This document shows positions 19,667 through 27,503 of a DNA stretch of 30,374 nt, piece after piece. The translations under genes were made by a program, and so were the position numbers. Source of the stretch: a virus (lineage: Duplodnaviria > Heunggongvirae > Uroviricota > Caudoviricetes). Position 1 is the stretch's first letter, and each line of letters opens with the position of its first letter. The DNA is taken from IMG/VR virus record IMGVR_UViG_3300009788_001732, positions 73,963-104,336 of that record; one strand, written 5' to 3'. The notes under the pieces are model-generated. The model saw only the letters and a list, made by a program, of their open reading frames with translations, was not told the DNA's origin and did no database searches.

Positions 19667-21100
19667 TCGCGCCCAAAAGTAGTCACTAAAGGGCCTACCA
19701 ATCCCTACAACTCCTCTATTCGTTGCAACCGAGATATCCAACCCACCCGTCACACCCACACCTACCACCCTGTCCAACCCCGCCGGTACACATGAACATA
19801 CGAACAGTACAGTATGTATCACAAACGAACGGTCCCACAATGGGTCTGGTGTACTCAATGTATCTAGCATACTCGAATTATGCGGAAGCGTCCGAAACAT
19901 GGTGGTCGACCGTCCAAATTGGAGCCGTTCAAACAAACACCATCAGCCAGGTGAGACCAGGCAATAGAGAGATTGACTGGATGTACAGAGGTACAGAAGT
20001 ATCGGCGTGGCCCGGGCGCCCGGCGCGGGCCGGCCAATGGTAGTAGTGGGTTTCCCCTAGGTGTAACACCTAAGCGCCAGCGCTGGCGCTCAGCGCTGGG
20101 CCGGCGCTGAACTGGCGCGGCGGCCGCACGGTGGTCGCCCCGCCGCAGCGCCGGGCCTGCGGTGGTCGGCCGAAACCACGCTGAATCGATTCAACTCGAT
20201 TCGGCGTAACATCTTACGCAATCTGCGTAGACAGTACCCCCAATCTGGGTGTATCAATTGTGCAACCACAAAGAGGTGAGGTGTACAAATGTATCGGAGT
20301 GGTGAACAGATGTCAACCACACCGATGGTGGCTACCTCCCCTATCAGAGGGGTAAAATAAGGGTCGATGGAGGGTCAACGCGTAGGGTCAACGCGGCCGA
20401 AAGGGTCGATTATCGGGTAAATAAGGGTCGATGAGGGTTGGATTTACCCCCTAAATGGGGGATTTTGTTACAGAATCGGCTCTTTTTCACCCCCATTAGG
20501 GGTACCTCTTCTGGGTGGGTATAAGGGGAAGTACCTACACTTCTGAAAAGTGTGCCATTTTGACTCACTTTTTACCCCTCTCATAGGGGGTTTTGATAGC
20601 AGATAAAAGTGCAGGTAAAGTGGAATATCACGATTTGGCGGGGTGCGCGCAGTTTTTGTTGAGCGCGGAGGGTCGATGGGCAGTTTAAATTATAGTGTAC
20701 AAGGGTTCATACGCCGATTCATAAGTCTTGCTTCTCATAGGGGTTATGACAAGAGGGTCAATAGAGGGTCAAGTTACTATAAGGGTTGAATTAAGAATGA
20801 CTCTCTTATCAATAATATGTATACGTTTTTAAGTAGTACAATAAAGCAACACGCGCCAATCGGTCCTTTTAGGGCTCTCAGATTCATAACCCCGCCGAGC
20901 GCTAAGACTTACACAAGGACCGATACCGACCCTTGCCCCTTAAACGCCTAGTTTGGCGCACCTATTCAGCCCATATCCGACCCTTTACCCAAACCACGCC
21001 GATACATCGCATCTAAGGCCCGAAGAGCAAACAGCAGTGTTTGAGGTCACCACAGGCTTAGAAAGCCATGAGCGGGCTCACCAGAGCCTCTGATCGTTCA
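19570..21100. other. Repeat-rich non-coding region where both gene blocks converge; origin or terminus/packaging candidate
   Basis: No credible ORF; at least 8 AGGGTC(G/A)A octamers; CCCC-N5/7-GGGG dyads; GC-rich palindromes; local C/G skew switches. Confidence 0.6.
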
Positions 21101-21109
21101 ATTTATTCA

Positions 21110-21149
21110 AATAAAGAAAGCCGTGGCTAGCTGGAACTAGCCACGGCTT
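21110..21149 (-). terminator. Intrinsic terminator
   Basis: 13-bp perfect stem AAGCCGTGGCTAG/CTAGCCACGGCTT, 6-nt loop, followed by TCTTTATTT on the minus strand. Confidence 0.85.
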
Positions 21150-21155
21150 CAAAGT

Positions 21156-21203
21156 GGTTGATTCGGAGAGTACGCCGGCGGTTGATTTGGAGAGTACACC
21201 GGC
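21156..21203. repeat. Two tandem 24-nt repeats
   Basis: GGTTGATTCGGAGAGTACGCCGGC / GGTTGATTTGGAGAGTACACCGGC (22 of 24 identical). Confidence 0.9.
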
Positions 21204-21307
21204 GTGGTGTCACTGTTAGAAAGTGCTAAGATCGGTTCTCCGAATCAAACCCAAATAACGCAAGGACGGAAAGTCCGCCTATTGGCCCTCAGCGTATACC
21301 CAATCAC

Positions 21308-21336
21308 ATTATAGAAGATTGTCGAGCAGTTGTCAA
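21308..21336 (-). promoter_or_regulatory. Perfect sigma70 consensus promoter
   Basis: TTGACA-17-TATAAT on the minus strand. Confidence 0.9.
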
Positions 21337-21477
21337 GAGCCATACTTTCATGAAAGTGCCAATGCTATCAATCTTATGTATGCTTACACCGAGGCATAAG
21401 ATTAAGGCGGCATGGTGCTCGATAACATTTACTCACTGTGCCTCATTGATACCGGTGCCAGGACCACGCCTTAATAA

Positions 21478-21600
21478 TCAGTCCCATAGCACGGGCCTTA
21501 ATGCCCCTATGATAGTCAATCCCATAGCAACAACAATCACGGCAAACACCACACTGACCCAAAAAGGCGCTTTCTTCGATTCTTGCATCGGTTCTCTCAT
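21478..21600 (-). CDS. 40-aa single-TM peptide
   Basis: MREPMQESKKAPFWVSVVFAVIVVAMGLTIIGALRPVLWD, read manually. Confidence 0.55.
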   Translation of the reverse strand: MREPMQESKKAPFWVSVVFAVIVVAMGLTIIGALRPVLWD

Positions 21601-21625
21601 GGTTCACTATAGCATGAGCACAGCT

Positions 21626-21838
21626 TTAGAGCAACTTGCGAACAGACACGCGCATTGCTTTGGCGAAAATTCGCAACATTGATAGCCGAGGATCGTTTGT
21701 TTGGTTCAAAAACTGCCACGCACCCTTTCTTGCCGTTTCACCTTGGTAACCCATTCGCTGCCCTAATTCATCCAAGGTCATTGACGATCGTCTGAAAGTT
21801 GCACGCGCTCGAATCATTGCACGATCGGTCATTGTCAT
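21626..21838 (-). CDS. XRE/Cro-family HTH protein
   Basis: MTLDELGQRMGY...AWQFL...DPRLSML..FAKAM.VSV..LL; AAGGT RBS. Confidence 0.85.
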   Translation of the reverse strand: MTMTDRAMIRARATFRRSSMTLDELGQRMGYQGETARKGAWQFLNQTNDPRLSMLRIFAKAMRVSVRKLL

Positions 21839-21864
21839 TACCTTTCACATCTAATATGAGTAGC

Positions 21865-22212
21865 TTAACGCAGAGTGGCGATATGCGAACTAACAAACGC
21901 GCAGGCAATTTCCTCATAATTCACTTCCGATAATGCATCCTGCAAAAGGTCCGTGTACAGAGTAACTCTACGTTCGTGTGTGTACCGCAGGTCTAAGTCT
22001 GTGAACGTGGCTTCGAGACGATCCGCCAGTATAAAAATTGCACGATACTTTTGGGTGACCGACGTCGGATAGTCTAACGAATCGACTGCCTGAAGGTAGC
22101 ATATCTTAGCTTGTTCTTGCCAGTAAGCATAGAATGACGGGTTACCAGTAAACCAGGTATTAACAGCCCAAGTTGCATGATTCGACCAGCCTTGACACCT
22201 GTCATAGTTCAT
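21865..22212 (-). CDS. Widespread phage protein of the (Y)NGWxNxxTW...EVNxxEIA type
   Basis: GWSNHATWAVNTW and LSEVNYEEIA; start at internal ATG with AGGA RBS. Confidence 0.7.
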   Translation of the reverse strand: MNYDRCQGWSNHATWAVNTWFTGNPSFYAYWQEQAKICYLQAVDSLDYPTSVTQKYRAIFILADRLEATFTDLDLRYTHERRVTLYTDLLQDALSEVNYEEIACAFVSSHIATLR

Positions 22213-22929: not shown

Positions 22930-22932
22930 AAA

Positions 22933-23007
22933 CTCGCCCGGTAGGACTCGAACCTACAACCTGCGGATTAGTAATTACCGCTGCTCTGCCAATTGAGCTA
23001 CGGGCGT
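22933..23007 (-). tRNA. Atypical tRNA-like element, anticodon ACT (nominally Ser), short variable loop, no CCA
   Basis: D arm GCTC-AATTGGCA-GAGC; T arm GTAGG-TTCGAGT-CCTAC; 6-bp acceptor stem with A1:A72 mismatch; loop TT-ACT-AA; 2-nt bulge in the anticodon stem. Confidence 0.8.
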
Positions 23008-23013
23008 GCTACT

Positions 23014-23853
23014 CTAGCTTGTGCGGTAAATATAGAAGGTAACACTACCATCCGTACAATCAACGGTTTCCTCGTTCTCGTTCCCATCGTAACCTGATAG
23101 AAAGTGTCTGCGCCCATCCATTTTAGCATCGCTTTTCCAGGCGTCACGATCGAAATAGTTCGCCATTGCTTCAGGAATCTCCAGGCATTCGTCTATGTAG
23201 TTGTTCAGCGACTCATCCCAAAGATCGTCTGCCTCATCGTCAGTAACAACTAGATACTCGCCATCATCCGCCGCGATAGATTCTCGACGATCCGTAACCG
23301 GGAGATTGTCAAAAGCTTCGCGCAGTGTGTCGCGGTGTGCGATAGCGTGCCCAGAATCATCAGATTTGGTACAAAGAAAATGCAGCGTATTGACCAAATC
23401 GTGCAAGCCGATCTTAGTCAACGGCTCCGTTTCAGGATTATTGCGAATCGTTCGCACCAATTCGTTATAACTAGGGAATAGGTAGCCCGGGTCGCCGAAT
23501 GGTACGCATCGCCTCTTATTGTCCGCTGCGCCTTGCTGGAAAGTTTTCGTTGTCCAACCGGGGGTGCGTGTGTCTGGGTACAGTATCCAAATCCCCGAAT
23601 CGGTTATCATCATCGGCCTTATAGACGGGTCATCATCGATTGCAATTTTTAATGCACGCCGAACCAATGCGACTAGTTGCCGCGCCTTGTCGGGAGATGT
23701 ACCTTGTAACCGCTGGTGCTCGTTAACGATGATCGACGTATCATCATACTTGCTAGCTTCTAGCTCATCCTCATCGCATTCTAGAAACTTGGCCAAGGCT
23801 GCAATACGCGCTTCATCAAGTGTTAATTCTTCGCTTGTCGTTTCTACGTTCAT
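23014..23853 (-). CDS. Acidic protein with ArdA-like C-terminus and central insertion
   Basis: ALAKFL...; EYLVVTDDEAD...IPEAMANYFDRDAWKSD...YDGNENE...YIYR. Confidence 0.6.
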   Translation of the reverse strand: MNVETTSEELTLDEARIAALAKFLECDEDELEASKYDDTSIIVNEHQRLQGTSPDKARQLVALVRRALKIAIDDDPSIRPMMITDSGIWILYPDTRTPGWTTKTFQQGAADNKRRCVPFGDPGYLFPSYNELVRTIRNNPETEPLTKIGLHDLVNTLHFLCTKSDDSGHAIAHRDTLREAFDNLPVTDRRESIAADDGEYLVVTDDEADDLWDESLNNYIDECLEIPEAMANYFDRDAWKSDAKMDGRRHFLSGYDGNENEETVDCTDGSVTFYIYRTS

Positions 23854-27477: not shown

Positions 27478-27503
27478 CGTTTCTCCTCTGTCTAAATGAT
27501 AGC

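What the first reader, a model, noticed from the sequence alone, without database searches (positions are those of the whole stretch)
21110..21336. Strongly promoted ncRNA of about 190 nt with a two-position pairing switch
Seen: the only perfect TTGACA-17-TATAAT in the elements I examined fires leftward into a stretch with no RBS-led ORF, ending at a 13-bp terminator. In the transcript, GGUUUGAUUCGGAGA (21251-21237) is complementary to both tandem 24-nt repeats (UCUCCAAAUCAACC and UCUCCGAAUCAACC), so it can pair with either copy and leave the other free. A small GGAC-UUUCC-GUCC hairpin lies near the 5' end. Inference: an abundant regulatory RNA such as a protein sponge, antitoxin-like repeat RNA, anti-defence decoy or replication-control RNA for the adjacent putative origin. 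I recognise no Rfam family.
Basis: partly seen in the sequence, partly recalled or inferred. Interest (0 to 1): 0.75.

Follow-up and report, generated by a model that had tools for sequence, protein, structure and literature searches.

The report
Phage small RNA, anti-ribosome-site loop
An uncultured phage of planctomycete bacteria carries what looks like a strongly expressed gene for a 190-base non-coding RNA, whose exposed loop matches ribosome-binding sites and may damp translation; it is not a two-way switch, and no relative, transcript or target was found.

Summary
The anatomy is real. The promoter is the only perfect sigma-70 match in this 104-kb planctomycete-type phage, the terminator is its third strongest, and the 24-nt repeat is its only tandem repeat of period 15-40.

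The 'two-position switch' is not supported. The anti-repeat pairs with repeat 2 in 2000/2000 sampled folds; the repeat-1 state is 7 kcal/mol worse and appears only during transcription. The mature fold leaves repeat 1 (UACUCUCCAAAUCAAC) open in a 16-nt loop. Its UCUCC core is complementary to GGAGA, the phage's most enriched ribosome-binding motif (23-fold). The anti-repeat is itself an RBS look-alike (GGAGA-ACCG-AUC).

Best reading (0.4): an accessory, Hfq-independent base-pairing sRNA with an anti-Shine-Dalgarno loop, working like LhrC, cuckoo or c4 RNAs but belonging to none.

A syntenic relative keeps the neighbouring origin-like array but lacks the RNA, arguing against replication control. 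No homologue, transcript or specific target was found, so there is no covariation support. The scan has reported anti-SD-loop sRNAs in other phages (e1-5441443, e1-5385541, e1-5412347); this sequence is new.

The parts
21308..21336 (-). Perfect sigma-70 promoter TTGACA-17-TATAAT
   Evidence: only 12/12 site in the genome
21344..21357 (.). 14-bp perfect palindrome ACTTTCATGAAAGT just upstream of the -35 box; possible operator, untested
   Evidence: not found beside homologues of the nearby HTH gene
21110..21301 (-). Predicted RNA of about 190 nt (start inferred 7 nt after the -10 box)
21253..21301 (-). 5' stem domain, including the weak GGAC-UUUCC-GUCC hairpin (21276-21264)
   Evidence: outer stem p 0.7-0.99, inner hairpin p 0.38-0.50
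21237..21251 (-). Anti-repeat GGUUUGAUUCGGAGA; ends in the phage's dominant RBS motif GGAGA; locked by repeat 2
   Evidence: opening the SD costs 11.5 kcal/mol
21209..21226 (-). Small side hairpin CACU-UUCUAAC-AGUG at the three-way junction
   Evidence: p about 0.9
21172..21205 (-). Display hairpin: 9-bp GC-rich stem, 16-nt loop UACUCUCCAAAUCAAC (21196-21181) with the anti-SD core UCUCC
   Evidence: loop 91-100% unpaired; opening costs 0.08 kcal/mol
21180..21203 (-). Repeat 1 (exposed copy; one mismatch to the anti-repeat)
21156..21179 (-). Repeat 2 (paired copy; perfect 12-bp arm)
21149..21232 (-). Cryptic 27-codon frame from AUC, 4 nt after GGAGA, with its stop at the terminator base; RBS locked in the mature fold, probably not translated
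21110..21150 (-). Intrinsic terminator, 13-15 bp stem plus U tract, one-directional
21478..21838 (-). Context: XRE-type HTH gene (21626-21838) and a 36-40-aa hydrophobic peptide gene (21478-21600), in the same variable slot as the RNA

Best explanation
It is a stand-alone, accessory small-RNA gene of a planctomycete phage. Host sigma-70 polymerase makes an RNA of about 190 nt from the phage's best-consensus promoter to a strong terminator (inferred from the signals). During synthesis an internal RBS look-alike is caught first by repeat 1 and then permanently by repeat 2 (computed). The mature RNA is a stable three-way junction that holds repeat 1 open in a 16-nt loop (computed). The loop's UCUCC core seeds on GGAGA Shine-Dalgarno regions of host or phage mRNAs, extends into U-rich upstream bases, and blocks ribosome loading without Hfq (inferred; no target shown). 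The tandem duplication supplies one copy to close the structure and a spare copy to display; because the unit holds the near-palindrome GCCGGY, the duplication also builds the display stem.
For: Unique perfect promoter, third-strongest terminator and unique tandem repeat in 104 kb. Body fold z -3.4. Repeat 1 is fully unpaired in a loop, and the one mismatch sharpens this: making it identical to repeat 2 moves 15% of folds to repeat 1. GGAGA is the top 5-mer before phage start codons, 23-fold enriched, 21 of 143 genes. The host-class 16S tail is GAUCACCUCCUUUCU, so the loop would compete for the same sites. Hfq was found in 0 of 5 Planctomycetia genomes, which fits a structured loop-seeded RNA. 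C/U-rich loops are the target-recognition device of LhrC (PMC4132741) and resemble the anti-SD loops of cuckoo RNAs (PMC4615179). The gene lies in a variable slot absent from a 70-80% identical relative.
Against: No homologue was found, so there is no covariation. No specific target: the loop pairs with phage start regions no better than shuffled loops, best genome-wide duplexes are within shuffle range, and no recurring host gene carries the complement in Planctomycetia or Pirellulales. There is only one exposed motif, UCUCC is a 5-mer, and the display stem is an automatic by-product of the duplication. The true host is unknown.
Confidence: 0.4

Rival explanations
1. Protein-binding decoy RNA: the folded RNA or its loop titrates a host defence or regulatory protein (antitoxin mimic, solitary CRISPR-repeat mimic, CsrA-type sponge).
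For: Strong promoter with a compact stable fold; accessory slot near an ArdA-like gene (weak PF07275 hit) and an HTH whose host homologues often precede restriction genes; Planctomycetia carry 5-11 CsrA paralogues per genome; no RNA target found.
Against: Only 2 GGA motifs, both in stems. The repeat never occurs multi-copy, as a CRISPR repeat would, in 185,579 species genomes. The unit is 24 nt, not the 36-nt ToxI pseudoknot (PMC3475682). No reverse transcriptase, TROVE or Nop partner in the phage.
Confidence: 0.2
2. Locked mini-mRNA or dual-function RNA: GGAGA-ACCG-AUC starts a 27-codon peptide, and the two repeats are sequential anti-SD locks inside the ORF, as in type I toxin mRNAs.
For: SD plus 4-nt spacer matches real phage starts such as GGAGA-AACG-ATG at 27486. 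The stop falls at the terminator base and the repeat is 8 codons. One of the two copy differences is synonymous in this frame, neither is in the GTG frame. The SD is about half open until repeat 1 is made. Sequential SD sequestration is known for aapA3 (PMC6733600).
Against: AUC is a very weak start. Opening the ribosome footprint costs 18 kcal/mol in the mature RNA. The locks lie inside the ORF, so 3' trimming cannot unlock it. The peptide is polar, not toxin-like, and has no homologue in 50,697 phage records.
Confidence: 0.13
3. Non-functional or DNA-level feature: an orphan promoter of a decayed gene in front of the early operon's terminator, with a recent slippage duplication, or three protein-binding sites in DNA.
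For: Singleton, absent from the close relative. The body folds about equally on both strands (-50.2 vs -50.7) and 6% of GC-matched windows fold as well. The terminator also closes the upstream leftward operon.
Against: An unused promoter should not stay the only 12/12 site in the genome. The 12-bp inverted repeat, the unique tandem repeat, the promoter and the terminator all fall within 230 nt.
Confidence: 0.17
4. Replication-control or primer RNA for the adjacent origin-like AGGGTCRA array.
For: The transcript points towards the array at 20303-20962.
Against: Relative L167 keeps the array at 73% identity with no such promoter, RNA or strong terminator. A strong terminator separates the RNA from the array. 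No complementarity above shuffles.
Confidence: 0.05
5. True bistable switch or attenuator.
For: The anti-repeat can pair with either copy; the repeat-1 state dominates at transcript lengths 120-138.
Against: 7 kcal/mol gap and 2000/2000 samples for repeat 2; the terminator forms in both states; no gene follows on that strand.
Confidence: 0.05

Closest known systems
LhrC sRNAs of Listeria monocytogenes (PMC4132741)
   Same: Redundant C/U-rich motif in loops or single strands; pairs with the G-rich sequence upstream of a start codon; stem opening extends the duplex.
   Different: LhrC has three UCCC sites and five gene copies in a bacterium. Here there is one exposed UCUCC, a second copy locked by an internal RBS look-alike, a single phage gene, and no Rfam match.
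Cuckoo / alpha-r14 / RSs0680 family (PMC4615179)
   Same: Anti-SD-like motif shown in a hairpin loop; repeated module.
   Different: Cuckoo RNAs have 2-4 adjacent hairpins, each with CCUCCUCCC, in Alphaproteobacteria. Here the motif differs, the fold is a three-way junction, and only one loop carries the motif.
c4 antisense RNA of phages P1/P7 (as summarised in PMC12197685)
   Same: Phage-encoded structured RNA whose loops pair around a ribosome-binding site.
   Different: c4 has a defined target in its own genome (ant mRNA). No such complement exists in this genome, and Rfam C4 did not match.
aapA3 type I toxin mRNA of Helicobacter pylori (PMC6733600)
   Same: An SD caught by successive anti-SD sequences during transcription, ending in a stable inert fold.
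   Different: No AUG, no hydrophobic toxin, no antisense antitoxin, and no 3' lock that could be trimmed.
Pseudo-ToxI of phage PhiTE (PMC3475682)
   Same: Short tandem repeat in a phage intergenic region that could expand by slippage.
   Different: ToxI units are 36-nt pseudoknots similar to a host antitoxin. Here the units are 24 nt, base-paired to an internal anti-repeat, with no host antitoxin match.

Membership tests
Any Rfam family | Match to a covariance model at gathering score | tested here: not met
Cuckoo/alpha-r14 | CCUCCUCCC in the loops of 2-4 adjacent hairpins | tested here: not met
   Loop is UACUCUCCAAAUCAAC, one display hairpin
LhrC | Three UCCC sites; Rfam/sequence similarity; multicopy | tested here: not met
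Anti-SD base-pairing sRNAs (mode of action) | Unpaired C/U-rich motif complementary to the SD in use | tested here: met
Anti-SD base-pairing sRNAs (mode of action) | Own promoter and intrinsic terminator, no AUG-led ORF | tested here: met
Anti-SD base-pairing sRNAs (mode of action) | A specific mRNA target with extended complementarity | tested here: inconclusive
   None above chance in the phage or in sampled Planctomycetia; real host unknown
Anti-SD base-pairing sRNAs (mode of action) | Transcript detected and repression shown | not testable with these tools
   No RNA holder listed
Anti-SD base-pairing sRNAs (mode of action) | Conserved structure with covariation | tested here: inconclusive
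   No homologue to align
CsrB/RsmZ-type sponges | Many GGA motifs in loops (own knowledge) | tested here: not met
   2 GGA, both in stems
Type III antitoxin or mimic (ToxI) | Repeats of about 36 nt that fold as pseudoknots | tested here: not met
   24-nt units
Type III antitoxin or mimic (ToxI) | Cognate ToxN in phage or host group | tested here: inconclusive
   Not found in phage or 201 Pirellulales; no positive control rang
Solitary CRISPR-repeat RNA (Racr) | Identity to a CRISPR array repeat | tested here: not met
   63 single-copy, chance-level matches in GTDB, none arrayed; exact 17-mer only
Retron msr-msd, Y RNA, TIGR array | Partner gene (RT, TROVE, Nop domain) in the genome | tested here: not met
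tRNA/tmRNA or tRNA-derived | Cloverleaf or tag frame; similarity to a tRNA | tested here: not met
   ARAGORN finds none here; alignments to the four phage tRNAs score at shuffle level
Type I toxin-antitoxin antitoxin | Extended complementarity to a small hydrophobic gene's mRNA | tested here: not met
   Same strand as the upstream peptide gene; only broken, patchy duplexes
Riboswitch/attenuator | Alternative fold controls a terminator or RBS of a downstream gene | tested here: not met
   Terminator forms in both folds; no downstream gene

The most novel reading that the evidence does not exclude
The RNA is a translation-sensing device. If a ribosome loads on GGAGA-ACCG-AUC in the roughly 50-nt window before repeat 1 is made, the lock never forms and both anti-SD repeats stay free. 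Free ribosome supply would then set how much anti-SD activity a phage sRNA has. It would be the first described small RNA of a planctomycete phage, in a host class with 5-11 CsrA paralogues and no detectable Hfq.
Probability: 0.07. Interest if true: 0.75.

Novelty: new variant of a known kind. Interest (0 to 1): 0.33.

Why it matters
Almost nothing is known about RNA regulation in planctomycetes or their phages; my paper search found no study of such an RNA. If the reading holds, a phage uses its best-consensus promoter on an RNA that competes with the 16S tail for GGAGA sites, with an internal RBS look-alike as part of the scaffold. It is cheap to test, because the sigma-70 signals should work in laboratory hosts. 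Its weight is limited: it is a singleton, absent from the closest relative, and anti-SD loop sRNAs are a known kind that this scan has already noted in other phages.

Tried and rejected
Homologue searches, all empty: blastn of phages and plasmids; repeat pattern in IMG/VR (16), GTDB (36: 63 single hits, about 139 expected by my uniform estimate) and metagenomes (58: 25 chance hits, checked in 59); anti-repeat/repeat pattern (37: 5 unrelated loci, checked in 39); 30 terminase/capsid relatives by DNA (31, 32) and by a one-sequence covariance model; 141 Pirellulales genomes (106; no positive control among them); flanking-protein and array-pattern scans of viral contigs; distant relatives of a flanking protein gave only short contigs. 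Expression: no RNA holder listed, which is no evidence either way; the one DNA run may be the source sample. Rejected ideas: pairing to the 16S 5' end (only 9 nt shared, duplexes at shuffle level); tRNA-Glu-like 5' domain; a second structured RNA at 21340-21485 (z +1.5) or 20960-21110 (z -0.7); antisense to the upstream peptide or HTH mRNA; the 28-codon GTG ORF (no SD; both repeat differences change residues); the palindrome as this HTH's operator (not beside homologues). Correction: my notebook said 2 of 3 repeat differences are synonymous in the AUC frame. The third lies outside the repeat, so it is 1 of 2.

Full report
Setting. The window is the last 30 kb of a 104,336-nt linear virus record. 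ORFs that look like terminase, capsid and tail genes mark it as a tailed phage (my reading, not profile hits). The one run that holds it is a subsurface metagenome, possibly the source sample. A captured response regulator is 70% identical to a Pirellulaceae gene, so the host is probably a member of the Planctomycetia. The finding lies at the end of the leftward block of small genes, before about 1.6 kb of non-coding DNA that holds an oriented AGGGTCRA array.

Observation. TTGACA-17-TATAAT at 21336-21308 is the only 12/12 site in the genome. The terminator at 21150-21117 has 13 perfect pairs, 15 with G:U, and a U tract on the minus strand only. It is the third strongest in the genome; the two stronger ones follow the putative capsid gene and a putative tail gene. 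The 24-nt repeat is the only tandem repeat of period 15-40 in the genome, and a 12-bp perfect arm occurs in only 3 of 1390 windows. The 192-nt transcript folds at z -6.0, and at -3.4 without the terminator. Six percent of GC-matched windows fold as well as the body, so the fold alone is modest evidence; the clustering of signals is the strong part. Rfam has nothing. Other assemblies carry the identical sequence, so it is not an assembly error, but they may come from the same site.

The switch. Constrained folding puts the repeat-1 state 7 kcal/mol above the repeat-2 state, and 2000 of 2000 sampled structures use repeat 2. The terminator forms in both. Folding of growing prefixes gives a one-way path: a weak local hairpin with the SD about half open (66-114 nt), repeat 1 (120-138 nt), then repeat 2 from 144 nt. 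These are equilibrium folds of prefixes, not kinetics. In the final fold repeat 1 sits in a 16-nt loop on a 9-bp stem, 91-100% unpaired. If repeat 1 were identical to repeat 2 it would take 15% of folds, so the single A:C mismatch sharpens the display. The stem arises from the near-palindrome GCCGGY in each unit, so the duplication creates it automatically; this weakens it as evidence of selection.

What the repeat is. GGAGA is the most enriched 5-mer before this phage's start codons (23-fold, 21 of 143 genes, spacers mostly 4-9 nt). The host-class 16S tail is GAUCACCUCCUUUCU. The exposed UCUCC is therefore an anti-SD for the sites in use. The anti-repeat ends in GGAGA-ACCG-AUC, which resembles real starts (GGAGA-AACG-ATG at 27486; GAGAGA-ACCG-ATG in the upstream peptide gene). 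From that AUC a 27-codon frame runs to a stop at the terminator base. Its SD costs 11.5 kcal/mol to open and the ribosome footprint 18, and the peptide has no match in phage records. I read it as an RBS look-alike used as scaffold, and keep a locked mini-mRNA as a rival.

Targets. None was found. Genome-wide duplexes are within shuffle range. Phage start regions pair better than random DNA (-6.8 vs -5.4 kcal/mol) but no better than shuffled loops. The 13-nt complement occurs in 74 of 301 Planctomycetia genomes, about uniform chance, with no recurring RBS among 30 inspected loci. With an ATG added, 30 Pirellulales loci gave no two homologous genes. A host-specific target remains open because the host is unknown.

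Relatives. A 10.5-kb JGI contig (L167) is syntenic and 70-80% identical on both sides. It keeps the AGGGTCRA array at 73% but replaces about 21040-21877 with other small genes and a tRNA, with no perfect promoter, repeat or strong terminator. The RNA is thus accessory and not needed for the array. It shares the slot with an XRE HTH whose host homologues precede restriction-modification genes in three of five contexts, and a unique 36-aa hydrophobic peptide. All homologue searches were empty.

Rivals. CsrA sponge: hosts have 5-11 CsrA paralogues and no Hfq hit, but the RNA has two GGA motifs, both in stems. ToxI mimic: units are 24 nt against 36 (PMC3475682), and no ToxN was found, without a positive control. 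CRISPR-repeat mimic: the repeat is never arrayed. Retron, Y RNA, TIGR: no partner gene. tRNA-like and anti-16S ideas scored at shuffle level.

Comparison. It works most like LhrC (PMC4132741), cuckoo RNAs (PMC4615179) and c4 of P1/P7 (PMC12197685), and its folding path recalls aapA3 (PMC6733600). It fails the membership features of each. The scan's own notes list anti-SD-loop sRNAs in other phages; those are unchecked AI notes, not support. No look-alike sequence is noted in another genome.

Verdict. Shown in the sequence: promoter, terminator, repeats, complementarity, RBS enrichment, absence from the relative. Computed: the one-way fold and the exposed loop. Inferred: transcription, the anti-SD function and Hfq independence. 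It is probably a real sRNA gene (my estimate about 0.8); the anti-SD mechanism stands at 0.4. New variant of a known kind; interest 0.33.

Noticed in passing
window 20303-20962; L167 9699-10353: The AGGGTCRA / CCCCT-hairpin array is conserved at 73% identity in the relative while the neighbouring genes are swapped, so this non-coding block is under selection (origin, terminus or packaging site; not resolved).
   Followed up: partly
window 21344-21357: Perfect 14-bp palindrome just upstream of the -35 box; its left half GCACTTTC recurs inside the RNA at 21226. Possible operator; not found beside homologues of the neighbouring HTH.
   Followed up: partly
window 21626-21838: XRE HTH, 60-70% identical to small regulators that directly precede MT-A70/BglII, N6-methylase or GmrSD genes in three of five contexts: possibly a captured restriction-system controller.
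   Followed up: partly
L167 9494-9504: The 44-aa hydrophobic gene that fills the same slot in the relative carries GTTGATTTGGA at codons 6-10, an exact 11-nt complement to the exposed loop. I estimate p about 0.03 before correcting for many looks; probably chance.
   Followed up: no
window 22932-23008; L167 9351-9420: The odd tRNA-like gene (ARAGORN: Val-TAC) is 83% identical to a canonical-looking tRNA with anticodon TCT in the relative, which lies at a shifted position.
   Followed up: no
G031, G064, G114, G127, G141 (Planctomycetia genomes): Each genome has 5-11 CsrA paralogues and no Hfq hit; their sponge RNAs would be worth looking for.
   Followed up: no
window 23014-23853: 279-aa acidic protein with a weak ArdA antirestriction hit (E 2e-4), 74% conserved in the relative.
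   Followed up: no
window 21357-21478: Three interleaved imperfect inverted repeats between the peptide gene and the promoter; folding is no better than shuffles (z +1.5).
   Followed up: yes
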